Made by a program: the position numbers and the translations under genes. The notes below the pieces were generated by a model. The model ran no database searches and had not been told where the DNA came from. It saw only the letters and a program-made list of their open reading frames with translations. Of a stretch of 64,000 nt of DNA, positions 20,001 through 62,700 are shown piece by piece. The stretch's first letter is position 1, and each line of letters begins with the position of its first letter. The DNA is from Azolla caroliniana (lineage: Eukaryota; Plantae; Polypodiophyta), in assembly GCA_043228905.1 (NCBI GenBank), contig JBHGNT010000001.1, positions 5,704,001 through 5,768,000 on the forward strand, written 5' to 3'.

Positions 20001-20744
20001 AAAGCTCGCATCTCACTGTGTTAAATCACAAATTGGAGTAAGCCAGTCGGTTGTACTCTGTTCCTATGATTGTAACCGCTTGAGGGGAGCTCCTTGAGCA
20101 ACAACCGACCCAATCGTGCTTCATTCGGTTAAACAACCAAATAGGTCACCGGACGCTATTCACTTGCTTGTTGTAACCACCCGCTGCAGATTGGTCTCCT
20201 GGCAACAACCACTTCGTGCTTTAATCGGTTGATTGACATTCGGGAGGATCAGTTGGATCCGTCCCTCTCATAGCTGCAGTCATCCGAAGTTGAATCGGTC
20301 CAAACAATTGGTCTCGTGTAATCGGTATTCGGCATACAATCGAAAGCTAACCGGGCTCACTCCAACTCGGCAACATTCGGGAAGACCAACTGGTTCTGTC
20401 TCTCAAGTTACCGTTGTCGTGAAGAAAACCGTCCCTTAGCGCAATCGGTGCATAGCACGCGTGAACCGGCTCTTCACGCGTGCGCGCCCTTTAAATGTAT
20501 ATAATAGAGAATTAGGTACAAAGGTATGTCCTAGGTAGTTAGATTCGGTAGGTAGGAAGTTAATGAGGGAAACGGCTTCCTTGTGGAAGCTATAAAAGAG
20601 CGGGAGACGCGGGGAGAAGGGGATCGCGCATTGAGGAGGACGAAGTGCTGTCGGACCGTAACCGAACGCTTCTCCTCTGTTCGTTCCCCATCGCTCTTCT
20701 CTGCAGGGTTTTCAGGAGGCTCGCGCTGCTTCGAGGAACGCAGT

Positions 20745-21395
20745 TGTTGCATTACTACGCGCGTGCGTGGAGAAACGAGGCGGGACCACCGGGGTCTTGA
20801 ACCGAAGAGCAGGTGATAGAAGGGGAAAGAGAAGGAGAGAGAGACCCGATCACGTATGAGCAAAGAAACACAGGGGCACGGCCCGTCAACACAGAAGACA
20901 CGAATGGACACAGAGACAGGGAGACATAAATGTCTGTATATTAACGAATAACAAATACAAAACAGAGCACGCGAGCGGTTACAACCGAACAGGCCGGCGA
21001 ACAGATGCCGATGCCTGTTCGTCTGCGCACGAAAAGGAGAAAAGGGTGGAGGTGCTGCTGGAAGCACACGAGCGTTCCTCGAAGCAGCGCGAGCCTCCCG
21101 AAAACCCTGCAGAGAAGAGTGATAGAGAACGAATCTGAGGAGAAGCGTTCGGTTCCGGTCCGACAGCACTTCGTCCTCCTTAATGCGCGATGCTTTCTCC
21201 CTGCGTCTCCCTCTCCTTTATAGCTTCAAGAAGGGAGCCGTCTCCCTCATTTACTTCCTACCTACCGAATCTAACTACCCGGATATGCCTTTGTACTTAA
21301 TTCCCTATTATATACATTAAGGGCGCGCACACGTGAAGAGATGGTTCACGCGCGCTATGCACCGATTGCGCCAAGGGACGGTTTTCTTCACGATA
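20745..21395 (-). mobile_element. Solo LTR of the element-C family, inserted in reverse inside the 5' LTR of C
   Basis: Reverse complement of the C LTR end to end; 4-bp TSD CAGT (20741-20744) / CCGT (21396-21399); the uninterrupted 3' LTR reads GGAACG-CCGT-GTGCTT. Confidence 0.9.
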
Positions 21396-21741
21396 CCGTG
21401 TGCTTCCGGCAGCACCTCCATCCTATCCCCCTTCGTGCGTAGACGAACAGGCATCGGCATCTGTTCGCCGGCCTGTTCGGTTGTAACCGTTCGCGTGCTC
21501 TGTTGTTTATTTGTCATTCGTTAATATACAAACATTTGTGTCTCTCTGTCTCTGTGTCCATTCGTGTCTTCTGCGTTGACGGGTCGTGCCCCCCCCTGTG
21601 TTTCTTTGCTCATACGTAACCGGGCGTCTCTCTCTTTCTCTTTCCCCTTCTAACACCTGCTCTTCGTTTCAAGACCCCAGTGGTCCCGCCTCGTTTCTCC
21701 ACGCACGCGCGTAGTAACGCGACATCTTTGGTGAACCCGAC

Positions 21742-23909
21742 ATGAAACAGGCGGTAGAGGAGCAGAAGATGAGGGGGTCAGATCTTGCAGAGGCCATGGC
21801 TTCGGCCGTGGACCGGATGGTGAGCGCGCGCGAGGGCACCGGCGCCCTTGACAGGGCTATTGAGGCGATCGTCGATACGATCAGCCGGTTCAGTGGAAAG
21901 GATGCCACGAGTTATTTGGCGTCCTACCGGGTGGAGATGTTGATGAGGGATATTCCGGAAGAGAGGTGTCTTGCCGGATTCCCTCGAGTGGCGACGCCGG
22001 ACATCCATGCGGAGGTGCTCGAGGTCCGGGCGGAGAGCCGAACCTGGGAGGAGTTCGAAGGACGGCTCCTGGAGAAATACGGGCTGGATGACGCGCTTCG
22101 ACTTTCGAAGCGGGGCTTCATGGAGTGGGTGGAGTCCCCCAACAAAGGAAGAAATGCGTCGGTACTCCTCCGGGAGTTTGAGGAACGCTTTGCGCGCCTT
22201 TCGGCGCTCGATCGGACCGTTCTGGACACGAGTCGTGTCCTACTGTTTGTCAAATCGGTTGACGAACGGGATCGGGAGCAAGTGGTCTCCTTACTGGAAA
22301 CCGAAGACGGGCTGACGACGGACTGGGCCGCGGTAAAAAGAGTCTGCGGCCGTTTTGACAAACGGCGGGAGTGGGCTGATATAGGGGCGACCGGGGCGGG
22401 TCCTGTCGCATCAAGGAAGCTCGAACCGATACCGCAGGCGCGAAGGGAAGAGACCCGGGAGTGGCTCGAAACCGGTTCGGCTTCGACCGGCGTGGTCAGA
22501 GGCTCGTCTGAGGGAACAACTTTGGAGGAGTTGACACGGGCGGTAAAGGATCTCCAGATCGCCCAGGCTCGGAGGGAAGGCGGTGAATAGGCTCGTGACC
22601 GATGACCTCCAGCAGGAAATAGGTGCATGTGGTGCGACGAGGTCGGCCACATCCGGAAAGACTGCGGGGACTTTGCGGAGGCTTTGAGAAGCCGGGTAGT
22701 GTACCTGTGGGAAGGTCGGGTGCACGCCAGCGATACCCGGAGGGCCCTTAACCGGAACGATGGGCGAGGAGGAATGAAAAGGCTGATGGAAGAGGCGGCG
22801 GCCCGGCACGTGGAGACCATCCACTACTCGGCGTCAGCCGGTATTCAGGTCGGAGGCAGCGAGGCCTGGAAGGAGAGCCAAGCCGGGTTCTGGCCGACGA
22901 TGCTGGAAGGCCTCGCCGGTGCCCGACTAAGGAAAGACGAGGCGGACCGCGCGGAGAAGCGGGTCCAGGAGGTAACCGGGTGGAGTGACCCGGTTGAAGA
23001 AAAGACGGGTTTCGTCGAAGCAGCTTGCCAGAATTACGAGGCTCTGGTAGAAGACAAACAGGTAGGTAAAACTGGAGGGGCCGGACCCTCACAGAGATAC
23101 GAAACCTGATTCAGGCCGAAACGGAACGAGGCCGGTGAGACCAGTGCCCGGGATAACCACAAGAAGGGCGGATGCCGGTTGGGCACAAAGATCGAAAGGA
23201 CCACGGACCTACGAAAGGTCCTGGAAGAACAAATCCTCGACAGCAAGGTGGAACTGTCGTTGCGGGAGGTGCTCGGAATCGCCAAGAAGGAGTTCCACGA
23301 CTCCATCGTAGACTTGGTGAAGAGGAAGAGGCTGTCGACGGAGACAGAACCGGAAAGGCCGGTGGAGGTGCGGATGACGCACATAGAGGACATGGCGCTG
23401 GAAGACGAGTGGGCGGAGAGCCACTATTCGAGGCCACACTGGGCCCGAGTGACCACGGAAACCCTGGTGAAGATCGGAGATGTTCAGGAACCGGTGGTGG
23501 CGCTAGTGGACCACGGTTCGGAAATAAACCTGATGTCCATGGACTTCTACAAGAAGGGGAAATGGCCGATCAACACCAAGCACATGTGGAAGATATGGGC
23601 GGCGACGTGCACCACCGAGGAACTACACGGGGCCTGCCCAAACGTGCGAGTCAAGATCGGCGACGTCGAGATAGACCAACACTTCTTTGTGCAGGAGACG
23701 TCCTCGCACCCGGTCATGCTGGGAGAACCATACTGGGACCAGCACTTCTTTGTGCAGCGCGGATGGCGACCAAGGTACTGGACAACGGGTCGGCTTACGC
23801 GAGGGTCAAGAGTCAGGACGAGCGTCATTCGGTCCAGTTCCTGACAGTGCGACCGAACCACGAGCGAAACCGCGAGTCCCTCGGTGGCGAGAATTGACAT
23901 GATTTTTAG
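21742..23909 (+). pseudogene. gag-protease of element C (stops and frameshift)
   Basis: RFSGKDATSYL capsid-like region, zinc knuckle CMWCDEVGHIRKDC, aspartic protease ALVDHGSEINLM; ends GAT TTT TAG. Confidence 0.85.
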
Positions 23910-26900
23910 AAAGGGCTGTCAAGGCGTGGGGCCGCGATAGTCCGAACACTCCAGGAAAACCCCACAAATGTACGATAGATGCGAAACCGAAGAAACCTTG
24001 TACCATAAGTAGGAAGTTTTGTTTCTCCGACAACGGAGGATGTACGATAGTCGGCGTCGTTGGCCGAGAAAAGACAAGGGCGGAAGAGCGACTTCGGGCG
24101 TGCGGAGTTCTTGGGCACAACGAGGAAATCAACGGAGCCGTGGAGGCGGTCTCCTTTGACGATACCTTGGGAATACTGCGAGAGGTGGTCGGAGAGGGCC
24201 TTAAAGAGGACCGGATGATACCGGTTTGTTCAGAAGAGATGTACGAAGTCATCGCGGACTTCAGTCGGGGGCTCGAGTCGGATCGGACGGCCCGGGTTAA
24301 CACGAAGTACAAGACTGTGGACCGGAAGGTAAGGCCAGTCGCGGCACCCTTACCGGAGGGCAGCGAGTTGCGAATCAAGGGGGTCGTGTCGGACCCCAGT
24401 TTATGAGATCCGGCCTGCATAGGACACACCTTCACCGACAGAACGCTACGGGAGCTCAAAATCGGTGGGGGCGGGTTCCTACTGCCGGCGGAAGAAGACC
24501 GGTTTCGGAGAATGCTCAGAAGGCACGGAAAAGCCTTCGCATTCTCATCGGGAGAGATCGGGTGCGTGGACCCGACAGTCGTGAAGCCAATGTTGATATT
24601 CACGGTACCGCATGTGCCGTGGAATCTCAAACCAATTCCGGTACCGAGAGCTCACATCCCGGAGCTGATGGAGCTGTTGAAGCAGAAAGTCGATATGGGC
24701 ATCCTCGAACCGTCGAGTGCCCCGTACTCGAACCGGTGGTTTACCGTACCGAAGAAGAACGGGACGTTGCGCTTCATTCAAGACCTGCAACCGGTCAACA
24801 GAGTGACCATTCGGAACGCAGGAATCGGACCAACGATAGATGAGTTCGCGGAGGCCTTCGCCGGAAGGTCGATCTACTTGGTCGGTGATCTGTACTCGGG
24901 GTAAGATCAGTTCCAACTAGCCGTAGAGAGCAGAGACATTACGATGATGCGGACTCCTCTCGGCCTAGTGCGGATGTGTACCCTGCCACAAGGAGGGACG
25001 AACTCGGTGGCCCACATGGTGAATGCGATGAACAAGGTGCTGAGGGATTGTATCCTGGACATCACCATGCCATTCTTGGACGACATCCCGATCAAGGGAT
25101 GTCCGGTGGAGGAAAAGGACGAAACGATCGGACCAGACGGGTGCCGGAAATTTGTGGCGACACACATTGACGACTGCGAGAGGGTGCTGCAGAGGCTAGA
25201 GGACGCGAGGCTCACCTTCTCCGGAGAGAAATCGGCCTTCGGGCAATCAGAGATCATGGTCGTCGGACATCTATGCGGACCGTATGGTCGGAAACCGTCT
25301 CCGGCTAAGGTGGAAGCCATCTCTGCAATGAAGCCCGACTGTAAGTCGGTCACGGAGGTACGGAGGTTCTTGGGAGCATACACGTTCTACCACATATGGA
25401 TCCCGCATTACGCCCACGTTGCCGAGCCGCTATACGGGTTGCTGAAAAAGGGGCGAAAATTCGAGTGGCGAGACGAGCATACGGAGTCGGTTCGAAAGAT
25501 GAAGGAGGCTCTTGCTGGAGCTCCGACACTCCGGAAGGCTGCCTACGAGAAAGGCACTCCCATCTACATAACGGTAGATACAAGTCCGACCGGGATCGAA
25601 TGGGTCGTCAACCAAGAAGATGAGGAAGGCATTCGGGTCCCAATCTGGTTCGGCGCGAAGGTCCTCAACGAGCGACAGCGAGGACACACCCAGGCTAAAA
25701 GCGAACTCTGGGGTATCGTTTCGGCGGTAAAGGCCGATAAAGACTATCTGATCGGGACAGAGGTGATTATCGAGACGGACTGCCTGCTGATTCTCGGCAT
25801 GGTTTCCGGATGCGCAACCCCGGACCTGGCAATGCTCTGGTGGATAGCGTACATCAAGTCCTTGAATCCAGAAATACGACACATTTCCGGGAAAGACAAT
25901 GCCATGGCCGACATGCTTTCGAGGGCGCGATTCGAGGACGAGGGCGGAATGGTTTCAGAGGACGAGGAAGTCGGTGTGGACTTCTTCGAGGCGGCTTACG
26001 TAACAACCGAGGGGGGGAGCACTCCGGCGCTTAACGATTTTAACGAGAGCAAGTACGACGGGGAGTGGCTGCAGATTGGGGGATTCTTAAGGACAATGAC
26101 GCCGGATGCGTCATGGACAAAGGACGAGGCCAACCGGATCCGGAAGAAAGCGTACCAATTCTTTCTCCGGGACGGATACTTGTGGAAGCACCCGAAGAAG
26201 AGAAACGACATCCTACTCCGAGTAGTGGCGATGGAGGAGGAACAGGAGGAGTTGCTGAAGGCCTACCACGACAGCCCCTGGGCTGGACACCGTGGGACGT
26301 GGGCCACGTTCGAGAAACTAAAGGGGAAGTACTGGTGGCCGGGACTATACCGGGACGTGCATCGGTTCGTGACAACTTGTGAGAGTTGTTAGATACACTC
26401 CATAGTCTGACATCGGGACGAGCTTCACCCTACATACCCTCTGGCCATCCACTTCAAATGGATGGTAGATTTGGTGACGATGCCGATGGGCGTAGGGCAG
26501 AAGCGATATCTGGTGCTGGCCCGGGAGGACCTGACGAACCAGGTGGAAGGCCGAGCCCTGCAGAACAAAACGACCGCGACCGTGTGTCGGTTCCTGATCG
26601 AGGACGTGATATGCCGGTACGGGTGCGTTGGGAAGATCGTGGCTGACCGTGGGGAGTTGGATGCTGAAGAGGCCGAGGAGCTGTTCGACCGGTTAGGGGT
26701 CAAGCTCTCGCTCACCACAACGTACAATCCGGAGGCGAACGGGAAGGTGGAGCGCGGACACGAACCGATCGTCAAAGCACTAGTCCGGGCGTGCGGAGGC
26801 CAGGTCGGGAACTGGCCACGACTGTTACCTTATGCCTTGTGGGCGGACCGGACAACGCACAGTTCGGTAACCGGGTTCATGCCGTCGGAGCTCATGTTCG

Positions 26901-27430
26901 GACAGAAGCCGATCATGCCGATGGAACGGACAATCTCCTCTTGGGCGATAGTGGACTGGAGAGGCGAGATGAGCCAGGAAGAATTGCTAGCGGCGCGTAT
27001 ACGGCAGCTCGAGCGGAGGCCAGAGGACGTGGAACGAGCGGCGGAGAGACTTCGGACGGCGAGGATGAGGAACAAAGCCCGGTTAGACCAAACGCACCAG
27101 CTCCGACCAAAGAAAATCGAGGAAGGCGATTGGGTGCTAGTCTACGACATTAGCCTCGACAACCAGCACCGGGCAACACGGAAGTTTGCAAGGCGGTGGT
27201 TCGGGCCTTACGTGGTAACGAGTGCCAACGACAACGGGACGTATCACCTGGCAGAACTCGACGGTGCGAGGATGGTGATACCGGTAGCAGGGAAGCGGAT
27301 CAAAGCGTTCAAGAAGCGCCACGACGGCGAACCGGATCTAAGAGGCCTGGACAACGACGACGAACAGTCCGAAACGGAGGACGAACTAATGGACGAGGAA
27401 CCGGAACCTGGACCGGTTTTCTCCAACTAG
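23904..27430 (+). pseudogene. pol (RT-RNase H-integrase) of element C, in the -1 frame relative to gag-PR, with several in-frame stops
   Basis: RFIQDLQPVN, LPQGGTNS, PFLDDIPIKG (RT); ITVDTS..ELWG..ETDC (RNase H); H-x5-H..CESC, VDLV..ADRGE..VERGH (integrase); WFGPY; no chromodomain. Confidence 0.9.
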
Positions 27431-29645
27431 AACCCAATTTTGGCGCATACCGGTGGATGCGCGGTTAGGTGGGGGCGGATGTCGTGCAGAAAACCGTCCC
27501 TTAGCGCAATCGGTGCATAGCACGCGTGAATAGGCTCTTCACGCGTGTGCGCCCTTTAAATGTATATAATAGAGAATTAGGTACAAAGGTATGTCCTAGG
27601 TAGTTAGATTCGGTAGGTAGGAAGTTAATGAGGGAAATGGCTCCCTTCTGGAAGCTATAAAAGAGAGGGAGACGCGGGGAGAAGGGGATCGCGCATTGAG
27701 GAGGACGAAGTGCTGTCGGACCGTAACCGAACGCTTCTCCTCTGTTCGTTCCCCATCGCTCTTCTCTGCAGGGTTTTCGGGAGGCTCGCGCTGCTTCGAG
27801 GAACGCCGTGTGCTTCCGACAGCACCTCCATCCTATCCCCCTTCGTGCGTAGACGAACAGGCATCGACATCTGTTCGCCGGCCTGTTTGGTTGTAACCGT
27901 TCGCGTGCTCTGTTGTTTATTTGTCATTCGTTAATATACAAACATTTGTGTCTCTCTGTCTCTGTGTCCATTCGTGTCTTCTGCGTTGATTGGCCGTGCC
28001 CCCCCCTGTGTTTCTTTGCTCATACATAACCGGGCGTCTCTCTCTTTCTCTTTCCCCTTCTAACACCTGCTCTTCGGTTCAAGATCTCGGTGGTCCCGCC
28101 TCGTTTCTCCACGCACGCGCGTAGTAACGCGACACTGTAGTCACTCCGAGCAAGTTCAGCAACAAGTATCTGAAACCAAACCGACTCGGGTTCAAAACCG
28201 ACTAGAACGACATCGGGTGAGCCGACCGGCTGCACCCCACTAAGGTTCCTAGTCAACTCCGAACTGAGTCTTACCAACCGAAACCGAAGCAGATGGCATC
28301 AACATCCGGATCATCGGAGATGAGTCTAAGGAGGTTCAATGGTTCGAACTTCAACTTTTGGAAGGAACAAATGCAGGACTATCTCATAGTCAAGGGTCAG
28401 ATAGATCCGATTGAGAATGAAAATCCTCGAGAAGCATACAAGGCAAACGAGTGGCTAAAGCTGAACAGAATCGTCCGCGCCACGATTCGGATGCACTTGT
28501 CGGAGTCAATGTACTTCACAATGCAATTATGCACGACAACGTTTGAACTTTGGAAAACATTGTCGAAAACTATGAAAAGAAGGTTGCCGCAACGAAGATG
28601 TATCTGATCCGGCGCCTCTACAACTTGCGGATGAAAGAATTCGATTCCGTTTAGGCACACCTCAACGAGTACGAAAGCATAAGCTCCCAAATCTCGTCTT
28701 AGGGGACGACAATCGAGGATGAACTCAGAGCAATGACACTCATGGGTAGTCTCCCCTCTTCATGGGAAACTTGCTTACAACTGTGTGCAATGCTTCAACA
28801 GTTGCCGTTAAGTACTCCAAAGTCACAAGCGCAATCCAGACTGAAGCAGCTCGGAGAAAGTCTTTCGCCAAAGACTCGGCAGATGAAGCTTACGTAGTAC
28901 AAGGTTCGACCGACCGATCGAACAACCGGGGAAGAAGTTCTTCCCGACCGCCGAACAATCAGCGAAGCCAGAGCAAGTCCCGGGACAACCCAATCTGCAA
29001 CTATTGCAAGAAACTGGGACACATCAAAGCTGACTACCGGGCACTCAAAGCAAAAACCGACAAAGCTCAGAGAGCGGATCAGAAGAGTAGTTGGCATGAG
29101 GAAGTCAACTACATCGGCTCTTCAGCCGAAATTTTGACGACCAACCCGAATATATGTTCATAGAGAACCTAATCGAATCAGAAGTTCTGCTTACGACTGA
29201 GGAATCGAGCACATGGCTTCTTGACTCGAGCGCATCGTATCATGTGACACCTCACCGATCTCAGTTTCGGCAATACTCGGACCGGCACTCCGACTCAGTT
29301 CAAGTCGGAAACTCCCAACACTGTGCTATAATCGGAATCAGCACCGTAGAGCTCAACCTTCCGGGTGGCTCTACGCTCGTACTACACAACGTTTGACACA
29401 TTCCTGAGCTCTCAAGACCCCTGATCTCAGTCGGACACCTTGACGAAGCCGGCATCCGTGCCGGATTCTCATTAGGAGGGTGGTCACTCCACAAAGGGAA
29501 CCTCCTGCTTGCTTGAGGACCAAAGGTACATTCCTTGTATCCTTTATATGTCACACTCAATGAGGGTGACTTATTTTTGGTAGATATCCCCGTGTCATCG
29601 TTATGGCATTGACGACTTGGACACCTCCGTAAGGCCGGCATAACG

Positions 29646-32600
29646 TGTTGGAGACAAAGGCCGTCAATGCGGAAGATCAGATAACATTCGATTTGTTGCG
29701 GAGTACCTGCGTATGACAGTTTCTGAGATCGTGCAGAGAGAGAGAGAGAGAGAGAGGAGGCACAAAAGACTTTCTATTCAATAGAATCAAAATAATACAA
29801 CCAACCTTACAAAGAGGTTACAAGGTCACTTTATATAGTGACCGACTTAGGGCAAATACCATTTATGCTAATTACACAAATGGCCCAAACTTGAGCTATA
29901 CAAAGGGATAGTGTGAATACGTCCATTATACACTTGTATTCGACACTCCCCCGTAATGGGCGTATACATGGGTTATCTAAGATTATAGGTATAAAGCTAG
30001 GTTCTCGGACATATCAGTTTTGTTTGAGTCGGCAGGGTCCGAAGGCAGAAGACCGGACTGGTCGGGTCGGAAGAGTTGAAGCCGATCATTAAGGAACTGA
30101 TGTCGGTTGTCCGAAGCCATCCTGCGCTGTGTCCGGCTCTAACCGGACTGGTTTGTCGTTACGCCCATCTGATGCCGAAGGGACCGAAAGCGGTCTACCG
30201 AAAGACACTTGGTCATTCCATCTGCGACATTGTCGGTTGTGGATATTTTCTCTAGACCGATTTTCCCTGAAATGACGCAGTCCCGAACGAAGTGATATCG
30301 AACGTCGATATGTTTGGAGGCGTTGTGGTGAACCGGATTTCTCGACAAGGCAACAACACCTTGACTGTCGCTATAGACAACTGGAGCCGAGTCATGGTCG
30401 ACTTGTCGAAACGTGTGCGCCAGCCGGCCGAGCCACAAAGCTTCTTTTGCAGCGTCGGACGCAGCTACATATTCTGCTTCGGTCGTTGAGGTTGCTGTGC
30501 ACTCCTGAAGTTTCGACTTCCATGAAATTGCTCCATTGCCGAATTTGAAGCAGTATCCGGTTGTTGATTTCCGACTGTCTATACAGCCGGCGAAGTCCGA
30601 GTCGGTGTAACCGACAACGCCCGAGGTCGAGTTCGGACCGAAAAGAATGCCGTGGTCTTTTGTGCCAGCCAGATATTTGAACACATGCTTGACTGCGTTC
30701 CAATGCGATCGGCCAGGATTGTGCATAAATCTGCTAACGACTCCTACGGCATGAGAGATATCAGGCCGTGTCGCGACCATCAGGTACATAAGGGAGCTGA
30801 CTGCCGGTGCATACGGTACCGACTTCATATCTTCCCCCTCCGGACCGGATGTCGGGCAGTCTCGCTGAGAGAGCCGAAGATTCATGGGGAGCGGGGTTGA
30901 AGCAGATTTGGCTGATTGCATGTTGAAGCGTTCCAAGACACGTCCGATATAGTCGGTCTGAGACAAAAAAAGACGTCGTTTATCGCGATGCCGACTAATC
31001 TTCATGCCAAGTATGTGTCGTGCCGGACCGAGGTCCTTCATGGCAAACTTCAACCGCAGTTGCCGAATGAGATCGGCAAGTTCGCCCGCGTGGCGACCAG
31101 AAATTAGCATGTCGTCCACGTAGATGATGAGGAAGATGGGTGATCCATCTTGAGCTGTGTTGGTAAAAAGACAATGGTCCTCATCGCTTTTTGAGAAGCC
31201 GATCGATTGGATGAAGTCGTCGAACTTCTTGTACCATTGTCGCGGTGCCTGTTTGAGGCCGTATAGACTCCTCCTGAGTCGGCAGACTAGATGTTCTTGG
31301 CCAGTTGCCACGAAGCCTTTTGGCTGCTCCATATAAATTTCCTCTTCAAGATCACCATGGAGGAAGGCTGTTTTGACATCTAGCTGAATCAGCTCCAAGT
31401 TGTCGGCTGCCACTACGCCGAGTAGAAAACGAAGGGTTGTCATTTTCACCACTGGTGAAAAAATCTCGTCGAAGTCGACGCCATATTCTTGTCGGAAGCC
31501 CTTCGCAACTAATCTGGCCTTGTACTTTGGGGTGGTCGAATCAGACGTCTCTTTTAGTCGATAAACCCACTTGCAAGGAAGAGCACGTCGATTCTTAGGT
31601 AATTCGACCAGATCCCAAGTCTTGTTTGCCCGAATGGAGGGCATTTCCGACTCCATCGCCAGATGCCAGGTGGCTGAATCGACAGATGTCGATGCTTCTT
31701 CGTAAGACGTCGGTTCGCCGGCGTCGGTGAAGAAAATTCCAGGAGAATACCTCTCCGGAGGTTGCGACAGTCTCTCGGATCGTCGAGGTATGATTGGACT
31801 GGTCGCATCGGGTATCGAGGTCGGATGGTCCGAAAGCGAATCATTCGGCTGTGCCGAGTCGGAGTTGTCCGAGTCGGTGGTGTAAGGTTCAGCTACCCGT
31901 GAAGCTGACCGTGTGTTAAGAGCGGGGCCTTCTTGAAGGGTCGGCACATCGGAAAATGTTACCCTTCGGACTTCGATCGGTTTTTCGACTGATGGATTCA
32001 TAGCCGACTCGTTGAACACAACGTCCGAACTTCGAACGATTTGTCTGCGTTCGGGGTCCCAGAGTCGGTATCCCATTTCGCCGTCGGATCCATATCCAAG
32101 GAAAATGCATTTCCTGGACCGAGGTGCAAGTTTTCGGCGATCATCTTTCGGAATAAGGGCGTACGCCTCGCATCCGAAGATCCTCAGCTTGTCGTAATTC
32201 GGCTTACTGCCGATCCATAGTTCCTGAGGAATTTGAAGTCCTAGAGGTCTACTTGGCGACATATTAATTATGTGTACTGCCGTGAGTAGAGCCTCTGCCC
32301 AGAAGCCATCCGACAGTCCGGAGTGTTGGAGCATGGAAACTATCCGTTCTTGGATTGTCCGATTCATGCGTTCTGCAATCCCGTTTTGCTCCGGACTGTG
32401 TGGTGCCGTAAATTCACGTCGGATGCCGCGTTGTCAGCAGAATTTGACGAATTCTTCTGATTTGAACTCTCCCCCATTGTCGGTCCGAAAGCATTTCAGT
32501 TTTCGGTCAGTTTGATTTTCTACCATCGCGAGCCAATCGGAGAAGATCGAGAAGACACGATCTTTGGTGCGAATTGGATAAGCCCACACCTTTCGAGTCG

Positions 32601-42666: not shown

Positions 42667-43082
42667 CACAGTTACGCGCTCTAATCTTGCGCAAACAAGA
42701 ATAACAACAACTAAAAGATTGCCCTAAGTCATATTTATACTAATATGAATTTTCGGCTATTTACAAATATAGCCACGATGGACTCTCAGAAACATATTTA
42801 CGAATATGTCTCTTCATCCGGTGAGCACTCCTCACCGGGTCTGCACCATCCGGCTCTCCGTAGCCGGGTACTCCTCATCCGGTTCTTACCGGGCCTGCAC
42901 CATCCGGCTCTTCGCAGCCGGGTACTCCTCATCCGGTTCTCACCGGGTCTGCACCATCCGGCTCTCCGTAGCCGGGCACTCCTCATCCGGTTCTCACCGG
43001 GTCTACACCATCCGTCTCTCCGAAGCCGGGTACTCCTCATCCGGTTTCTCCCTTCCCATCCGGAGGGACCTGTCTCCCAACA
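42343..43082 (-). mobile_element. Solo LTR (family M, copy 2) inserted in the RNase H region of K
   Basis: TG...CA termini; perfect TSD GGACT; four 54-bp repeats. Confidence 0.92.
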
Positions 43083-49500: not shown

Positions 49501-49875
49501 CCCCGGTTTCCGCCTATGGACGAAAATCTTCACGACATCCACCCCCACCAAACTGCACATCCACCGGTATGTGCCAAGAAAGGAAAAGGGTGAGAGATTT
49601 CTGCGATGGTGATCGACCGGGTCTTTCGCCTTACCGGCACCCAACCTTCTCGCCGGTCCCTTGCCAACGCCAATCCGTCTTGCCGGCTCCTTACCGGCCC
49701 CGACCCGCCGGCTCCATCCGATCCACCACGTCCAGCGTGTGTCCCCGAACCGGCGGCTCCATCCGATCCGCCATATCCGACGTTCACGCCTTCTTCTTCG
49801 ACCGGCCCTCCCGAACGCCATTGCCGATCCGGTCACTCTTACTTTGTCCGCCACGTAGGTCCTCCGATTAGGCCC

Positions 49876-52800
49876 TCAGTCACCCCGTTTGCTCGACGGA
49901 TTCCGCCCCTCGCGTACCACTTGTGTTCTATCTCCGACTCGATCCTCTCTTCGTCTCGAACACCTCGTGCCGATTCCCTCTGTTCCGCGCTCACCTTTCG
50001 TAGGCTCTTTCCGTGTGCCCTTGTTGTCTCCCGAACATGCGCTCATTCTTCGGTCCCTCGGTGACCTCATTACGCGCTCCTCGCTTCTCCCTCGCTCGCC
50101 GTGCTCTCTCGTCGTAGAGCATACCATCATCCCGACCACCATGTCAGTGTCCTTCGCGACTCCCGTTACCGCCTCATCCCGTCTCTCGTCCTCTTGGCCC
50201 GCTTGGCCTCGCATGCCTTCCGAGATGCCGCGCTTCCGTAGCCCGTTGCTCTCCACGCACCTCCTCCAGTTCTCAAGACATAGCCTTCCATGCTCGCCGA
50301 TCATCCTCATGCTTGTCGTTCGACCCTTACGCGGCCACATCGCACGTCTCGCACTCCGCTCCGCTCTGTGTACCCTTTCGAAAAGGTACGTTGCTTTCCC
50401 GACATCCGTGTCGGTGCTCTCGTCTTCGGTGTCCTCCACAACCTCCGATGTTGCCGCTTCGCCCCGAGGTACACCCTCTTGGTCCGCCTCGCATGTCCTC
50501 CAAATGCGCTCCGGATCTCTCCGGTCGCACTCCAGTTTCCGCCCTTTGCGTGCCGCTCCTTTGGTTTTATCGTCTCCGCATGTCGAACACCTCGGTGTGT
50601 CAACTCTTCCCGCTCCGCTCTTGCCTTCCGTAGGCTCTTCCCATGCGTCGATGTTGTCCCCCGAATATGCGCTCATTCTTTGGCCCTTAGGCGGCCCCAC
50701 TCCGCATTCCTTCCCTCTCCTTTGCCCGTCGTGCTCTCTCACCGTAGAGCGTACCGTCATCCCAACCTCCGTGTCGGTGTCCCTCGAGGCTCTCGTTATC
50801 GCCTCGCCTCGACTTGCACCCTCTTGGCTCGCTTGGCCTTGTATGCCCTCCGGGAAGCCGCCACGTTTTCTCTTCCCGGTGTGTACCCCGTTGTTCTCCG
50901 CGCATCCCCTCCATTTTCCCAGACACAATCCTTCGTTCACGCCGATCACGCCCGTCTCGTTCTGTCGATCTTGGCGTCTCGTCGCACCGCCCGTCGTCCC
51001 GCGCTTGCCTCTCGAAGGCTTTCTCCGACCTTCATCGTTGGTCACTCGTTGTGGATCTTCTGGGTGCATGCTTGCTTCTTGGCCCTTCGCCGGCCGTAGT
51101 ACACGCTCTGTTCTACGCCGTAATGCATGCTTCGTGTTACACGCTTCCCTCGTTGTAGTCCCGACCTCCGCGTCGGCCTCTTCGTATTTCGTTGCCGTAG
51201 CCCCTTTCGACTCCGGCCTTCCGTCTTGGCCGTGCTCATCCGCCTTCACGCACCGGGTACCCGTTCCGGTAGCCTCGTCCGTTCCGGTCTCCGACTCCTC
51301 GCCGCCTTCCGCCGTCTCTTTGGTCTTACGTCGATCCGCAACCGCCAAAGTCTCAAGAATAGGTGAGGAGGGTCCCTCTTGCTCTTGGCCTCCCACCGAG
51401 TCGTACTCCTTGTGCATGCTTGGCCTCCTTCTCGTGCTCACCAGCTCCCACCGGGTGTTGTGGCCCATTCGCCCGGATCGGTCTCGGCCGATCGAGTCCC
51501 GGTTTGGTCGGCTCCCTTCCGTAATCGTAACCGGCCGGTACATGTTTGTCCGAACAAATCCAGCCTTGCCGGCTCTTCTTCGGTTCGGGCCCGGTTGACC
51601 GGACCCCGCTCCAATCTTCTTCCGCGTCATCTTCCGGTCGTGTCGGATTATCGACCGGTTCATTTTCCGGTCGGTTCGGTTCCCGACTCTCTCCTCTTTG
51701 CCACTCCCGACCTCTCCGTCGGTCCTCTCGTATATGCCCGTTCCGGGCCTCGCATCCTCATCTTCGTACGTGTTCGCTCCGGGCCACGCCTCCTCACGGC
51801 CACCGCCCTTCTCTCCGGTCTTATGTTGGCATTCGAGCGCAACCGCCGTAATCTCCGGTCTCGGTGTCGAGAGGTCTTGCCTCCGTCCGCTATGACCTTC
51901 CTCGTCATCGTTTCGATCGTCCGCTTTGCCACCGCCACCTTCCGTCTCTCTGGTCTCACGTGGGCTCTCGGGGCCGACCGCCGAAGTCTCTAGAATAGGT
52001 GTTGGAAAAGTCCCGGTACCGTTACTCGTCGATGCCATGTTCGTAGCCACCTTCGTTTGGATGCCGTGGTCCGTGGCTATCTCTTTCTCGTTCTCCTTGC
52101 CGTTGTCTTGGTTGCCCGCCTTGCCGCCGCCACCGCCCGTCGCTCTAGGTCTCACGCCGGCACTCGGGCCGACCGCCGGAGCCTCTAGGACCGGTGTGGG
52201 TAAGGACCCAGCACCGCCGCTTGTCTCCTCCCCACTCGACGTTTCGGGCCGCCATGTCCCGAATCCGTAGTTACCGGCCTCCATGGCCGTCCCTTCACCG
52301 CAAGGCAAGAGGGTCGCTTGCTCCGCACCCTCTCCCATGTTGCCGTCTTCTACGTCTAGGGAGGCTTCTTCGTCCGCATCCTCTGATCGCCTCCGCCCCG
52401 ACTCCATAACAAGCCCTTCTTCGGCTCCGATTTTCGCCTTCACAAGCTCACATGCCTCTCGTATTAGTGCGTCTAGGTCGAGCTCCTCCGAACTGTTTTG
52501 CGTTGAGCTCTCTTTCGACAGTAGTGCGTACTCACTCGCCGCTCTCTCTTCTCTACCGCTTGTGGGCCACGTTGTTGCCGACCGCTCCCCATTGGGTTTC
52601 CGGCATACCCACTCCGGTTTCGAGTATCCGTACGCTTCCAATAGGGCTACCTCCAAGGATACCCACGACTCGTGAGCTTCTCGTAGCTCCTTGACCTCCT
52701 TGTGCACCGATGCGGCCGCCACTCGAGGAAAATACTCTAGCCGCATCTCCTCGTCCACGCCCCCTTTCGCCATCTCGGCCTTGTAGGCTCCCAAAAATTT

Positions 52801-52950
52801 TGGGACCTCATTCCCATTGAACCGGCCGACTCGATCGACCACCCTTTCGACAGCTTGTTGAGCCGCATCTCGCTTCGCCATCTTCCGTCCGGCTTCCATC
52901 ACAATTTTTGCCATCATCTCCTCGAAGTCGAAGTCTTCTTCCATCTCCAT
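49876..52950 (-). CDS. 1024-aa ORF of element E: Gag N-terminal domain (~110 aa) fused to a long G/E/R/T-rich internally repetitive region of unknown function
   Basis: ATG 15 nt after the PBS; VDRVGRFNGNEVPKFLGAYKAEM...ESWVSLEVALLEAYG aligns with Gag of C and H; no stop for 3075 nt. Confidence 0.65.
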   Translation of the reverse strand: MEMEEDFDFEEMMAKIVMEAGRKMAKRDAAQQAVERVVDRVGRFNGNEVPKFLGAYKAEMAKGGVDEEMRLEYFPRVAAASVHKEVKELREAHESWVSLEVALLEAYGYSKPEWVCRKPNGERSATTWPTSGREERAASEYALLSKESSTQNSSEELDLDALIREACELVKAKIGAEEGLVMESGRRRSEDADEEASLDVEDGNMGEGAEQATLLPCGEGTAMEAGNYGFGTWRPETSSGEETSGGAGSLPTPVLEAPAVGPSAGVRPRATGGGGGKAGNQDNGKENEKEIATDHGIQTKVATNMASTSNGTGTFPTPILETSAVGPESPRETRETEGGGGKADDRNDDEEGHSGRRQDLSTPRPEITAVALECQHKTGEKGGGREEAWPGANTYEDEDARPGTGIYERTDGEVGSGKEERVGNRTDRKMNRSIIRHDRKMTRKKIGAGSGQPGPNRRRAGKAGFVRTNMYRPVTITEGSRPNRDSIGRDRSGRMGHNTRWELVSTRRRPSMHKEYDSVGGQEQEGPSSPILETLAVADRRKTKETAEGGEESETGTDEATGTGTRCVKADEHGQDGRPESKGATATKYEEADAEVGTTTREACNTKHALRRRTERVLRPAKGQEASMHPEDPQRVTNDEGRRKPSRGKRGTTGGATRRQDRQNETGVIGVNEGLCLGKWRGCAENNGVHTGKRKRGGFPEGIQGQASQEGASRGEAITRASRDTDTEVGMTVRSTVREHDGQRRGKECGVGPPKGQRMSAYSGDNIDAWEEPTEGKSGAGRVDTPRCSTCGDDKTKGAARKGRKLECDRRDPERIWRTCEADQEGVPRGEAATSEVVEDTEDESTDTDVGKATYLFERVHRAERSARRAMWPRKGRTTSMRMIGEHGRLCLENWRRCVESNGLRKRGISEGMRGQAGQEDERRDEAVTGVAKDTDMVVGMMVCSTTREHGERGRSEERVMRSPRDRRMSACSGDNKGTRKEPTKGERGTEGIGTRCSRRREDRVGDRTQVVREGRNPSSKRGD

Positions 52951-52965
52951 GCTCCCTTGCCGCAC

Positions 52966-52983
52966 TTCACGTCGGGTTCACCA
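52966..52983 (-). promoter_or_regulatory. Primer-binding site, tRNA-Trp (element E)
   Basis: TGGTGAACCCGACGTGAA, an 18-nt complement of the recalled tRNA-Trp 3' end including CCA. Confidence 0.8.
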
Positions 52984-54793
52984 AATATGTCGCGTTGTTA
53001 CGCGCGTGCGTGTAGAAGGGGCGAGACCACGGGGGTCTTGGACTAGGGAGTGGAGGAGAAAGAATAGGACATGATATGGAGGCTTAGCTCAAGAGGAGAA
53101 GAGGAAAGAATAAGACCACGACATAGAAGGAGAGATCGGCGGAGGCAAGATGTTCAACAAGTTATGTTAAAACAACGAATGGTTACAACAATGATGGCCG
53201 CCCTGGCCGCACCCAAAAATGACTATCTCAAAAACCCTCAAGGAAAACCCCAGAAGAAAGACTAACCGAAACCCTAACCCTAAAACGAAATGGGAAGAAG
53301 GAGAACCCTAGACTAAGTGGTATACCTTACTCACACAAAATAGGCAACCCTTCATAAGTGACCCCTCCCTTCCTTTTATAGCCCAAGGAGGGAGGGACCT
53401 TACAATGTGGGATAAAATTTCCCCTCTCTTTCTATACACCATATCCTAGTTTACATGTGCACATGTAGCACACCACCAACTTGGCCTTCCCACCCCGGTT
53501 TCCGCCTATGGACGAAAATCTTCACGACAACGGACCACGAGTTCTTGAAATATTTCTATGACCAACAAGACCTGAAAGGTCCGAAGGCACGATGGGTTGA
53601 TCTCATCTAGGACTTTGATTTTTCCCTACGATATCGTAAAGGTTCCATGAACACTGTCGTAGATGCACTAAGTCGCATCCGTAAAGTTAACATGCTTAGC
53701 TTCACTGAAATAACATCAGATCTTTATTATCACCTTTGAGGAAAGTGTCCTGATGACAGTTATTCTGCAAAATACTGGGCAAGAGTTGAGTTTGGAAGAA
53801 CACCACCACATCCTCGAAGGAATCCTTCCACATTGCTAATGGTCTGCTCTACCGTAATAAGAAGGTTTGTGTTCCAAATTTTCCCAAGTTCAAAAAGAGA
53901 ATTCTTTTTGAATGCCATGATGCACCCTCAGTAGGGCACCCTGGAATATATCGTACACTCGTTCTAATCTCCACTCAATTCTATTGACCTAAGATGCATC
54001 CTGACATACATAGCTATGTGATTAAATGTCACCAATGTCAGGTTAACAAAGCCGAGCGACTTAAAGCTATAGGACTGGGAAAGTATATCCATGGATTTTA
54101 TTCTTAGCCTTCCTCGCACCCAAAAAGGCCATGATGTCATTTGGGTTGTGGTTGATAGACTAACTAAAATGGTAAGATTTATTGCTACTAAAACCACGAC
54201 AACAACTCCTGAATTGGCTTACCAATTCGTTGACGAGTTATTTCGTTTTTATGGGTTACCGATGGATATCGTGAGTGATCGAGATCCAAAATTTATTAGT
54301 GACTTCTGGATGCAAGTCTTTAAGAATTTAGAAACTACGTTGAGCATGAGCTCCACGAATCATCCTCAATCCCATGAATAGACAAAACGAGTTAATCAAA
54401 TTATTGAGGACATGCTTCGAGCATACGTTGGTGCAAAACCAACAAAATGAGAACTTCATCTCCCAATTTTGGAGTTTGCTTATAACATCTCTAAGCATAC
54501 GTCGATGAGATATAGTCCTTTTATATTGATGTATGGTTTTCAGCCACGAGCCCCGATTGATGTTAATATACATCATGATGAGTTGCGAAGTACGCAAAGC
54601 TTTCTTTAGGATATGCAAGATATGTTGCATATTACACGAGATAATATAAAAGCAACTCACGATAAAGCGCATTTTGACGCCGATCATAACATGCAACCTC
54701 GTGTATTCAACCCATGGACAGAAGGTATTTTTACGTGTACCTCACAATTCTAAGAGATTGTCTACGGGTAAGTGCGCTAAGTTAGCCCCACAA

Positions 54794-55083: not shown

Positions 55084-55442
55084 ACACGACATGGAGACTC
55101 TACCAGAAGCACTCGGGCGTTCCGCGGAGCAGAGTCAGCCTCCAGAAAACCTGCAGAGAACGATTATCGAGAAGAGAGAGGAGAAGAGCTCGGTTCCAGC
55201 CCGACAACACCTCGACCTCTCCAAAACGCGACCCCCCCCCCCTTTCTGTTTTTAATAGCTCTCCCTCTCCTTTATAGCCCAAGGAGGGAGGCCGTTACCA
55301 CCTGTTACATCATGTTTATTCCCTGTCCTTTCGGACATGGATATGCCTCGATTCTCCCCCTACTGAATGCGTGCTACCTAGGATTTCGCCTCAGCAGATT
55401 TGTACCTACCTACATACTATACAACAAAACTTGTGCCCACAT
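54794..55442 (-). mobile_element. LTR of the tRNA-Trp-primed family (element G), interrupted near its 5' end by element H
   Basis: Begins with the reverse complement of the family U5 end (TGTCGTGTTGTTATGCG...GGCGGGACCAC); body resembles the C LTR. Right boundary is inferred. Confidence 0.7.
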
Positions 55443-58298: not shown

Positions 58299-59750
58299 AC
58301 AGGAAGAAAACTCTCGGAGCAAAACATGTACGAATCGGTCCGGATGGGGCATCTACGTACACGACCGTAACCGGAGGATTGAAGAAAGGATACCAACAAG
58401 TGGAGGATAAGTTGCGGTCGGCATCAATAATAAAAGAAGATGAGGAAATCATGGGGATAGTCGAAGAAGTGTTCTATGGGAGCACGCTACAACGACTTGA
58501 AGAGCTTGCGGAAGATAAAAGCCAAGGGATCCGGGTAGTCCCGGTGGAATCGGTCGAGATGTACGAGATCATTGCGAAAATGGAGCCGGATACGCTCCGC
58601 AAAGAAGAAGCAATGGTAAATACGAAATACAAGACCGTGGAGAAGAAGGTGAAACCGGCCGCGGGACCACTACCCGCCGATAGCGAACAAAAGAGGAAAG
58701 AAGTCTCGGGAGATCCGACACTTCGGAAGTCCGTGGATATCGGACATGCCTTCACGGATGAGACCCGGAAGAAACTTCGGATCGGTGGAGGTGGGTTCCT
58801 ATTACAAAAAGAAGAAGAACGGTTTCGCGAGATGTTGGAGCAACACGGCAAAGCGTTTGCATTTACATCAAGGGAGATAGGGTGCGTCGATTCGAGAATA
58901 GTGGAGCCGATGGTGATCTTCACGATTGACCATGTACCGTGGAACTTGAAGCCGATTCCGGTGCCACGAGCGCATATTCCGAAAGTCATTGACTTGCTCA
59001 AGGAGAAGGCGGCGATGGGGATTCTAGAGCCATCAACTACTCCGTACTCAAATCGATGGTTTACGGTTCCGAAGAAGAATGGGTCACTCCGATTTATCCA
59101 AGACTTGCAACCGGTGAATAAGGTCACGATCCGGAACTCGGGAGTTGGTCCGATAGTGGACGAATTTGTGGAAGCTTTTGCCGGTCGTGCGATATACTCC
59201 ATCGGAGACCTATACTCAGGGTATGACCAATTCCAACTAGCCGTGGAGAGCCGAGACATCACAACCATGCGAACACCGTTAGGATTAGTCTGAATGTGCA
59301 CACTACCACAAGGAGCGACAAACTCGGTTGCTCATATGATGAACGCGATGAACAAGGTGCTTCGAGACTGCATTCCGGAGATAACGATGCCGTTCCTCGA
59401 TGACATTCCGATGAAAGGATGCGCGGTAGAAGAAAAAGATGAGACTATGGATGATCGGGGATGCCGAAAGTTCGTGGTCGACCATACTCATGATTGCGAG
59501 AAAGTGTTGCGAAAGCTAGAAGATGTGCACCTAACACTTTCCGGGGAGAAATCGGCATTTGGGCAAGAAGAAATATTGGTGGTCGGACATCTATGTGGGC
59601 CCTACGGCCGAAGACTGTCACCAACAAAGATCGATGCGATTCAAGCTATGGAGGAAATATGCGAGTCAACATCCGAAGTCCGAAGGTTTCTCGGTGCATG
59701 TGCATTCTATCACATATGGATTCCGCACTATGCACATATAGCGGACCCAC
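58239..59750 (+). pseudogene. Reverse transcriptase region of element H
   Basis: RFIQDLQPVN, DLYSGYDQ, LPQGATNS, PFLDDIPMKG; one in-frame TGA at 59291-59293; cut by element I. Confidence 0.88.
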
Positions 59751-62700
59751 TGTCGTGCAGATTTTCGTCCATAGGCAGAAACCGGGGTGGAAGGGGCAAG
59801 TCGGTGGTGTGCAACATGTGCACATGTATACTAGGATATGGTGTATAGAGAGAGAAGGGGAAATTTTTGTCCCACATTGTAAGGTCCCTCCCTCCTTGGG
59901 CTATAAAAGGAAGGAAGGGGTCACTTATGAAGGGGTTGCCTATTTTGCGTATGAGAGGTATACCACTTAGCCTAGAGTTCTTACCGTTTTAGGGTTAGGG
60001 TTTCCTTATTCATCTTCGGTTAGGGTTTTCTCATAGTCGTTGGGTGCGGCCCATGTGGCCACCATTGTTGTAACCATTCGTTGTTTTAATATAACTTGTT
60101 GAACATCTTGCCTCCGCCGATCTCTCCTTCTATGTCGTGGTCTTATTCTTTCCTCTTCTCCTCTTGAGCTAAGCCTCCATATCATGTCCTATTCTTTCTC
60201 CTCCACTCCCTAGTCCGAGACCCCGGTGGTCCCGACCCTTCTACACGTACGCGCGTAACAACGCGACATATTTGGTGAACCCGACGTGAAGGGCGGCAAG
60301 GGAGCATGGAGATGGAAGAAGACTTGGACTTCGAGGAGATGATGGCAAAAATCGTGATGGAAGCCGGACGGAAAATGGCGAAGCGAGATGCGGCTCAACA
60401 AGCCATCGAAAGGGTGGTCGATCGAGTCGGCCGATTCAATGGGTACGATGTCCCGAGGTTCTTTTAAGCGTATGAGGCCGAGATGGCGAAAGGGGGCGTG
60501 GACGAGGAGATGCGGCTAGAGTATTTTCCTCGACTGGCGGCCGCATCGGTGCACAAGGAGGTCAAGGAGCTACGAGAAGCTCACGAGTCGTGGGTGTCCT
60601 TGGAGGTAGCCCTATTGGAAGCGTGCGGATACGCGAAATCGGAGTGGGTATGCCGGCGACCCGATGGGGAGTGGTCGGCAACAACGTGGCCCGCGAGCGG
60701 CAGAGAAGAGAGAGCGGCGAGTGAGTACGCACTACCGCCGGAAGAGAGCTCAACGCAAAACGGTTCGGAGGAGCTCGACCTAGAAGCGCTAATACGAGAG
60801 GCATGCGAGCTTGTGAAGGCGAAAATCAGAGCCGAAGAAGGGCTTACACACACCGGTCCTAGAGACTCTGGCATCCGGCCCGAGAGCCGGTGTGAGACCT
60901 AGAGTGACGGACGGTGGCGGCGGCAATGCGGGCAACCGAGACGACGGCATGGGAGAGATGGTGGCAAGCGTAATCGAGGTTTGCGGAATCGGAGATGGGG
61001 TAGCCGCGGACAACGACGACCGGACGGAAGCGGCTACTGACACAACAAGTGGCGGTGCCGGGTCCTTACCCACACCGGTCCTAGAGGCTCCGGCGGCCGG
61101 CCCGAGTGCCGGCATGAGACCTAGAGCGACGGGCGGTGGCGGCGGCAAGGCGGCCTACCATGGCGACGAAGAGAACGAGGAAAAGATAGCCACGGACCAC
61201 GGCGTCCGAACGAAGGTGGCTACGAACATGGCATCGGCGAGTAATGGTATCGGGACTTTTCCCACACCTATTCAAGAGACTTCGGCAGTCGGCCCCGAGA
61301 GCCCACGTGAGACCGGAGAGAAGGGCGGTGGCCGTGAGGAGGTGTGGCCCGGAGCGAACACGTACGAAGATGAGGATGCGAGGCCCGGAACGGGAATATA
61401 CGAGAGGACCGACGGAGAGGTCGGGAGCGGCAAAGAGGAGAGAGTCAGGAACCGACCCGACCGGAAGATGGACCGGTCGATAATCCGACATGACCGGAAG
61501 ACGACGCGGAAGAACATTGGAGCGGGGTCTGGTCAACCGGGCCCGAACCGAAGAAGAGCTGGCAAGGTCGGATTTGTTCGGACAAACATCTACCGGCCGG
61601 TTACGATTACGGAAGGGAGCCGACCTAACCGGAACTCGATCGTCCGAGACCGATCCGGGCGAAGGCAAAGTTGACACGGTTGGAGGTCGAGGCGAACGGG
61701 CCACAACACCCGGTGGGAGCCGGTGAGCGCGAGAAGGATGCTAACCGGGCACGGTGATTACGGCTTGGCAGAAGACCGAGAGCGAGAGGAGCCCTCCACA
61801 TCTATCCTTGAGACTTCGGCGGTTGCTGATCAACATAAGACCGGAGACACGACGGGTGGCGGCGAGGAGTCGGAGACCGGAACTGACGAGGCCACTAGAA
61901 CGGGTACCCGGTGCGTGAAGACGGATGAGCACGGCCAAGACGGCAAGCCGGAGTCGAAAGGGGCTATAGCAAGAAAGGACGAAGAGACCGACGCGGAGGT
62001 CGGGTCTACGACGGATGAGGTGCGTAATACGAAGTATGCACTACGGCGTAAAACGGAGCAGGCACTACGGCCAGCGAAGGGCCAAGAAGTAAGCATGCAC
62101 CCGGAAGAGCGGCAACGAGTGACCGACAACGATGGACCTGTCGAGCCTTTGAGAGACAAGCACGCGGCGAGAGATGAAGCCGTAAGGTGCCGAGATCGGC
62201 GGATGGGTGGCGAGAGTGAAGGATGGTGCGCGGAGAACAACGGGGTACACACCGGGAAGAGAAAACGCAGCGGCTTCCCGGAGGACATACAAGGCCAAGC
62301 GGGCCAAGAGGGCGCAAGCCGAGGCGAGGCGGTAATGAGAGCCTCGAGGGACACCGACACGGAGGTCGGGAGGACGGTACGCTCTACGGTGAGAGAGCAC
62401 GACGGGCAAAGGAGAGGCAAGGAACGCGGAATGGGGTCGCCTAAGGGCCAAAGAATGAGCGCATATTCGGGGGACAACATCGGCGCACGAGAAGAGCCCA
62501 TGGAAGGCAAGCGCGGAGCAGGAAGAGTCGACACGCCGAGGTGTTCGGCATGCGGAGACGATAAAACCAAAGGAGGAACATACGCGGCACGAAAAGGGCG
62601 GAATCCGGAGTACGATCGGAGAGTTCAGGAGCGCACCCGGAGGACATACGAGCCTTTGCGAGGAATGCGCGCGGCGAGAGATGGAGCGGTGAGGTGCCGG

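What the first reader, a model, noticed from the sequence alone, without database searches (positions are those of the whole stretch)
20411..59754. 4-bp target-site duplications centred on CpG for the tRNA-Trp-primed family
Seen: all four complete insertions have 4-bp TSDs: CCGT/CTGT (C), CAGT/CCGT (inverted solo LTR), ACGG/ACGG (N) and ACGG/ACGG (E). These are all the same duplex, CCGT:ACGG. One-sided flanks fit NCGN or its deamination product: CCGG (B), ACAA where the sister host K reads ACGA (G), CCAC where C reads CCGC (I), and ACAT (H, boundary inferred). Copia F and family M in this window give ordinary 5-bp TSDs (TAACG, AGAAG, GGACT), and N and E hit CpG inside AT-rich hosts. Established: plant LTR elements usually make 5-bp TSDs with weak sequence preference. 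Inference: the integrase, which lacks a chromodomain, may read CpG or methyl-CpG directly, steering insertions into other transposons.
Basis: partly seen in the sequence, partly recalled or inferred. Interest (0 to 1): 0.8.

Follow-up and report, generated by a model that had tools for sequence, protein, structure and literature searches.

The report
Retrotransposon that inserts only at CpG
A group of plant jumping genes (host likely a fern) inserts almost only at CG dinucleotides and duplicates four bases there, a habit already published for the moss Phygy lineage; the integrase likely reads the CG itself, and whether it senses methylation is untested.

Summary
All four two-sided insertions carry 4-bp duplications, confirmed against empty sister sites; three control insertions give 5 bp. 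A metagenome scan gave 91 unique 3' junctions: 80 NCGN, 7 NTGN, 4 NCAN, none other, against 4% background CG. The 11 non-CG centres match ordinary CpG decay. The rule is NCGN, led by ACGT; 'always CCGT:ACGG' is not general (20 of 91). Neumann et al. 2019 list exactly this for Phygy: 4 bp (100%), NCGN, tRNA-Trp, no extra domain. These elements share those traits; a tree with true Phygy could not be built. Best mechanism: the integrase likely reads the central CG directly, since flexibility alone would admit TA (0 of 91). Methyl-CpG reading is untested, and nesting needs no methyl sensing because young elements hold far more CpG than old DNA. The scan noted a similar NCGN habit earlier in another, likely fungal, genome. 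Interest 0.3.

The parts
20411..20414 (+). Left TSD of element C (CCGT)
20415..28134 (+). Element C: non-chromovirus Ty3/gypsy, 655-bp LTRs 96.9% identical, gag-PR-RT-RH-INT broken by stops and frameshifts; 7065 bp without the nested solo LTR
28135..28138 (+). Right TSD of C (CTGT, one CpG-type change)
20745..21395 (-). Solo LTR (90.9% to C LTR) inside the 5' LTR of C; TSD CAGT 20741-20744 and CCGT 21396-21399; the empty 3' LTR reads CCGT
21729..21744 (+). Primer-binding site of C, 4 nt after the LTR end (same motif at 17061, 52968 minus, 56167, 60273)
26411..27430 (+). Integrase catalytic core plus SH3-like C-terminal domain of C; D20-D79-E114; ends in an acidic low-confidence tail, no chromodomain
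43855..44579 (-). Solo LTR N in chromovirus RT DNA; TSD ACGG 43851-43854 and 44580-44583
48996..53529 (-). Element E, LTRs 98.3% identical, 1033-aa frame without Pfam hit (likely non-autonomous); TSD ACGG 48992-48995 and 53530-53533
16316..16319 (+). One-sided flank CCGG of element B (5' LTR 16320-17056)
54790..54793 (+). One-sided flank ACAA of LTR G (54794 to about 55438, minus); sister host reads ACGA
55439..55442 (+). One-sided flank ACAT of element H (LTR inferred to start at 55443, inside LTR G); sister LTR L030 reads ATGT
59747..59750 (+). One-sided flank CCAC of element I (starts 59751, inside RNase H DNA of H); C reads CCGC
29646..35167 (-). Control: copia F, 5-bp TSD TAACG
38566..39331 (.). 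Control: family-M solo LTR, 5-bp TSD AGAAG
42343..43082 (.). Control: family-M solo LTR, 5-bp TSD GGACT

Best explanation
These are Phygy-type non-chromovirus Ty3/gypsy retrotransposons that insert at a central CG and duplicate 4 bp, likely because their integrase reads the CG base pairs directly, likely whether or not they are methylated. Shown: 4-bp stagger, CG centre, T almost absent at the first TSD base, no chromodomain, a PFV/Ty3-like predicted fold. Inferred: the two catalytic subunits join the LTR CA ends 4 bp apart on DNA kinked at the centre, as in foamy virus; T exclusion follows the known C5-methyl clash; CG selection comes from lineage-specific contacts, the candidates being the acidic residue at the PFV Ala188 position (DRGEL motif) and the conserved Gln/Lys loop before the GPY motif; partners without RT or integrase use the same enzyme in trans; nesting in other elements follows from where CpG survives.
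For: 91 of 91 unique outside 3' junctions have CG (80) or a single-step decay product (7 TG, 4 CA) against 4.0% background. Decay rate 11/91 does not differ from LTR CpGs in the same loci (8/91, p=0.63; 17/80, p=0.15), so nearly all targets were likely CG at insertion. TA is 26% of flank YR steps but 0 of 91 centres, which excludes flexibility alone. No bias beyond about position +5. The rule holds in CpG-poor flanks (18 of 90 with at most 1.5 CG per 100 bp, 17 of them NCGN). T first or A last: 3 of 91 against 54.5% of flank NCGN, matching the near-universal intasome rule (PMC4422553 section 14). Model pLDDT 78.7; best folds PFV (E 7e-13) and Ty3 (1e-11) integrases. E82 aligns to PFV A188 with a one-residue gap and is E or D in 68 of 69 rows; Q252 66 of 67, K258 65 of 66. 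CG per 100 bp: C 8.8, H 7.9, copia F 7.1, window 1-15000 1.3.
Against: No biochemical or methylation data. Ala188 contacts bases outside the TSD in PFV, so E82 need not explain the centre; placing PFV Arg329 in the corresponding loop is recalled, not aligned here. Of 5 solo LTRs with both flanks, one matches perfectly, two at 3 of 4 bases, and two poorly (L059, L051). One of 10 left flanks has a CT centre. C is about 8% shorter than the published Phygy range.
Confidence: 0.65

Rival explanations
1. The integrase needs or strongly prefers methylated CpG, so it would home to silenced repeats without a chromodomain.
For: At least 37 of 90-91 flanks are retroelement DNA; all eight window insertions lie in repeats; target CpGs decay to TG/CA, so they were likely methylated at some time; a review reports that C methylation created strong target preferences for avian retroviral integrase in vitro (PMC11054761 passage).
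Against: Decay can follow insertion; CpG density alone predicts nesting; sequence-specific Gypsy targets (CGCG for the ZAM group, PMC5408687) exist in Drosophila, which is recalled to lack CpG methylation; one insertion sits about 70 bp from an Alba-domain frame (L003). No methylome was available.
Confidence: 0.17
2. CG is chosen only by shape: the CpG step would be the one that best takes the sharp kink of a 4-bp intasome, with no base-specific contact.
For: 4-bp-TSD retroviruses favour a flexible YR centre (PMC4422553 passages); the fold is PFV-like.
Against: TA, TG and CA are also YR steps and make up 83% of them in the flanks, yet TA is 0 of 91 and TG/CA do not exceed decay.
Confidence: 0.13
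3. A host CpG-binding protein tethers the intasome and sets the site.
For: Tethering is established for Ty3, MLV and HIV (PMC5408687 passage).
Against: A tether usually places insertions next to its site, not exactly on it; no motif is seen at flank positions +5 to +16.
Confidence: 0.04
4. Artefact: the CG belongs to the LTR end or arises from assembly or small numbers.
For: Two of five outside solo LTRs have poorly matching flanks.
Against: 17 PBS-side ends show no CG after the terminal CA; first and fourth bases vary symmetrically; empty sister sites carry the same 4-mer once.
Confidence: 0.01

Closest known systems
Phygy lineage, non-chromovirus Ty3/gypsy of Physcomitrium patens (Neumann et al. 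2019, PMC6317226; passages and Additional file 5 read)
   Same: 4-bp TSD, NCGN target, PBS of the type listed as tRNA-Trp, no chromodomain, no archaeal RNase H, no extra ORF in C
   Different: Host is likely a fern, not P. patens (the paper calls Phygy species-specific; a later liverwort paper also lists Phygy, PMC12885004 passages); C is 7065 bp against 7656-9968; partners without RT or integrase are present; outer-base bias (ACGT first) is not given in the parts I could read
Ginger1 DNA transposons (Bao et al. 2010, PMC2836005; passages)
   Same: Gypsy-type integrase with GPY motif, 4-bp TSD centred on CG (CCGG 75%, CCGT/ACGG 24%)
   Different: Cut-and-paste DNA transposons with TIRs in animals; prefer CCGG, which is 4 of 91 here
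TatI and Selgy lineages (Neumann 2019 Additional file 5)
   Same: 4-bp TSD; TatI also uses tRNA-Trp
   Different: TatI carries an archaeal RNase H between protease and RT (none found here); Selgy uses tRNA-Ala; no NCGN preference is listed for either
Drosophila errantiviruses gypsy, ZAM, Idefix (PMC5408687; passages)
   Same: LTR elements with sequence-specific palindromic targets (TATA, CGCG, ATAT)
   Different: Animal elements with env and non-TG/CA ends; the ZAM target has a GC, not CG, centre
Prototype foamy virus intasome (PMC4422553; passages and section 14)
   Same: 4-bp stagger, YR centre, T avoided at the joining base; nearest solved fold
   Different: Only weak sequence preference; small neutral residue at position 188 where this lineage has Glu or Asp

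Membership tests
Phygy | Clusters with P. patens Phygy in RT/RH/INT trees (the defining criterion) | not testable with these tools
   No P. patens-labelled protein among the listed hits; the reference FASTA was too large to read; the RT tree of 33 rows has no Phygy row
Phygy | 4-bp TSD | tested here: met
   4 of 4 two-sided window insertions; 729-base skip at N
Phygy | NCGN target preference | tested here: met
   80 of 91 NCGN, the other 11 decay products
Phygy | tRNA-Trp primer-binding site | tested here: inconclusive
   One PBS motif at 5 window sites and 17 loci; its complement is a CCA-ended plant small RNA that a paper marks as a gypsy PBS complement (PMC5846777 passages); the Trp identity is recalled, and two DNA scans found no tRNA gene to confirm it
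Phygy | No chromodomain or other extra domain | tested here: met
   None by Pfam in C or five intact relatives; positive control found in the chromovirus host
Phygy | Length 7656-9968 bp (descriptive; the authors call size minor for classification) | tested here: inconclusive
   The single measurable copy, C, is 7065 bp, below the range, and is decayed
TatI | Archaeal RNase H between protease and RT | tested here: not met
   No such hit in the intervening frames of C and H or in intact relatives at E up to 0.1; the one weak RVT_3 match (P0141, E 0.047) overlaps the ordinary RNase H
Chromoviruses | Chromodomain at the integrase C-terminus | tested here: not met
Ginger1 | TIR DNA transposon without RT | tested here: not met
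   LTRs, PBS, RT and RNase H are present

The most novel reading that the evidence does not exclude
The integrase of this lineage is a true methyl-CpG reader: a chromodomain-free route by which a retrotransposon homes to silenced DNA, built into the catalytic complex and perhaps shared with CG-targeting elements in liverworts, ferns, fungi and with Ginger1.
Probability: 0.15. Interest if true: 0.78.

Novelty: new member of a known kind. Interest (0 to 1): 0.3.

Why it matters
The trait is known, but in the searches run I found it only as one sentence and one table cell in Neumann 2019, a TSD-length remark in Jedlicka 2019, and no mechanism. The data here show that the preference is close to absolute, holds in CpG-poor DNA, and occurs in a host that is likely a fern. 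That makes this integrase a clean system for asking how an intasome reads bases and whether DNA methylation can steer insertion. Each insertion also doubles a CpG, and new copies were seen landing in old duplications (L029, L061), which would help build nests.

Tried and rejected
No whole genome is held for this window, so the genome-wide logo was replaced by a metagenome scan. Phygy placement by tree: no reference sequence could be obtained; the tree only shows C and H among unnamed, Riccia and Adiantum relatives with weak inner support. The protein atlas gave no result. tRNA-Trp confirmation by DNA scan: one chance hit without a tRNA, and none. Laying contigs over H's LTR showed high-copy DNA from about 55454 but listed no loose end at 55443, so it adds little. 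Loose-end tables at N gave no flank consensus. Kitamura 1992 was not held and is cited only through a review. GingerRoot (PMC6839031, passages: 6-bp TSD, GC-rich, not sequence-specific), PMC11899658 and PMC7466625 (passages) gave nothing on this target. Rejected: a fixed CCGT:ACGG duplex (from one search counts, four of one class has about 3% chance; one-sided window flanks differ); 5-bp TSD; CG as part of the LTR; flexibility alone. Rows dropped before the count of 91: 17 PBS-side ends, 5 without LTR-like upstream bases (their flanks were 3 CG, 2 CA) and 7 duplicates, from 120. Complex prediction was not used, as no protein-protein claim is made.
Full report
Check of the observation. Self-alignment of the window shows a nest of LTR elements from 16 to 64 kb. 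Exact ends and flanks were read. C (20415-28134) has CCGT/CTGT, the inverted solo LTR (20745-21395) CAGT/CCGT, N (43855-44579) ACGG/ACGG and E (48996-53529) ACGG/ACGG. Lengths of 3, 5 or 6 fit worse in every case. Aligning both flanks to an empty sister copy leaves a 4-base gap for C, the solo and N; the E alignment was disturbed by my removal of another insertion from the sister. Two contigs of public run X1 skip 729 bases at N, which is the 725-bp LTR plus 4. Copia F and two family-M solo LTRs have perfect 5-bp duplications. The one-sided flanks read as stated. H's inferred boundary gains support: LTR G matches locus L030 up to that point, where L030 reads ATGT and the window reads ACAT, both one step from ACGT. 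The I flank is weak evidence because it sits at a synonymous codon position.

What the elements are. C encodes RT, RNase H and integrase in Gypsy order, broken by stops. Five elements share one primer-binding site 4 nt after the LTR. They are several families: the solo is 91% identical to C's LTR, N is 83% identical to E's, and H is 65-71% identical to C in its coding DNA. E has a 1033-residue frame without Pfam hits and is likely non-autonomous. Named relatives are from Riccia, Ceratopteris and Adiantum at roughly 42-64% identity. A host gene exon at 3912-4205 has its best named hits in Adiantum capillus-veneris (59-63%, 5 hits in all), so the host is likely a fern; this is weak.

Independent test. 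Seventeen were followed by the PBS, five lacked LTR-like upstream bases and seven were duplicates, leaving 91 unique host junctions. Their second and third bases were CG in 80, TG in 7 and CA in 4; background CG in the same flanks is 4.0%. The host of these contigs is the same or a close species, as LTRs reach 92% and flanks 91% identity to window sequence. CpGs inside the same LTRs are altered in 8 of 91 and 17 of 80 cases, not different from 11 of 91, and one CA-centred flank maps to a window site that reads ACGG (L099). So almost all targets were likely CG at insertion. Outer bases are symmetric: first base A 60, C 18, G 11, T 2; fourth base T 51, C 20, G 18, A 2. ACGT leads with 37, and CCGT:ACGG has 20. 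Ten left flanks gave 7 CG, 1 TG, 1 CA and 1 CT. Of five solo LTRs with both flanks, L076 matches fully, L008 and L047 at 3 of 4 bases, and L059 and L051 poorly; these two may be recombinants or chimeric contigs.

Mechanism. The predicted integrase (pLDDT 78.7) is closest to foamy virus and Ty3 integrases and ends without a chromodomain. Foamy virus makes 4-bp duplications by kinking the target at a central YR step, and nearly all retroviruses avoid T at the joining base (PMC4422553, passages and section 14). That explains the stagger and the T exclusion (3 of 91 against 54.5%). It does not explain CG: TA is 26% of flank YR steps and 0 of 91 centres. Direct readout of the central pair is therefore the likely extra step. 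Candidate residues are inferred: Glu82 at the PFV Ala188 position with a one-residue gap, and Gln252/Lys258 in the loop before the GPY motif. Ala188 touches bases outside the duplication in PFV, so the first candidate is uncertain, and the loop's match to PFV Arg329 is recalled.

Methylation and nesting. Nothing here tests methyl-CpG reading. Thirty of 90 flanks match retroelements of this window and seven more carry retroelement domains among 96 frames scanned from the rest; twelve match this lineage's own DNA by blastn. One lies beside an Alba-domain frame. There is no genome background for enrichment. CpG density alone favours nesting: 7-9 CG per 100 bp in C, E, H and F against 1.3 in the gene-bearing first 15 kb. 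A precedent for methylation-enhanced targets exists for avian retroviral integrase, seen only through a review passage (PMC11054761).

Comparison with what is known. Neumann et al. 2019 (PMC6317226; passages; Additional file 5 whole) state that Phygy elements are the exception among plant LTR elements in preferring NCGN, and tabulate 186 elements with 4-bp TSD (100%), tRNA-Trp PBS (81%) and no extra domain. Jedlicka et al. 2019 (PMC6911290; passages and section 8) report 4-bp TSDs for Phygy, GC-rich centres in 4-bp TSDs, and Phygy nested in Tcn1. Additional files 1 and 3 of Neumann were too large to read and may already hold the outer-base bias and the reference sequences. Ginger1 transposons target CCGG or CCGT (PMC2836005, passages). 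TatI is excluded by the missing archaeal RNase H. The elements work like Phygy on every functional trait tested; formal membership needs a tree that I could not build, the Trp label is recalled, and C is shorter than the published range.

Verdict. Real, near-absolute CpG targeting, already described for Phygy; new here are the likely fern host, the count, the outer-base rule and candidate residues. An earlier unreviewed note on another genome (e1-10582392) said it found no retrotransposon precedent; the Phygy record is one. Interest 0.3; the methyl-reader reading has about 15% probability and would merit 0.78.

Noticed in passing
window 7170-7499 and 14181-14509: Two 97%-identical, self-inverted elements of about 330 bp in AT-rich DNA, resembling a Tourist/PIF-type MITE (label recalled).
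   Followed up: no
window about 3900-6700 (+) and 10013-12300 (-): Host genes: a short-chain reductase whose best named hit is a fern 3-dehydrosphinganine reductase, and a glycine-rich RNA-binding protein (recognised from the translation).
   Followed up: partly
window 36824-38550: An AT-rich copia fragment with CpG observed/expected near 0.09 joins abruptly, in frame, to a CpG-rich copia (about 1.0); very different decay histories side by side.
   Followed up: no
window 49876-52977 (-) and 61675-63657 (+): Partners E and I keep long open frames (1033 and 660 aa) with internal repeats and no Pfam hit.
   Followed up: partly
L029, L061, L095, L113: Copies inserted directly into the ACGT beside an older copy, or into CpGs of the lineage's own LTR.
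   Followed up: partly
L003:718-1332: An insertion about 70 bp from an open frame with an Alba domain; a possible genic target.
   Followed up: no
window 17057-17060, 21725-21728, 52984-52987, 56163-56166, 60269-60272: A constant 4-nt spacer between the LTR end and the PBS in all five elements.
   Followed up: no
window 63608-63609: The 3' LTR of I breaks off after about 165 bp and H's RNase H-integrase linker resumes, which points to a deletion that removed I's right flank.
   Followed up: partly
window 23110-23841 and 57126-58241: Weak DUF4100 matches ahead of the protease in C and H, also in Riccia relatives.
   Followed up: no
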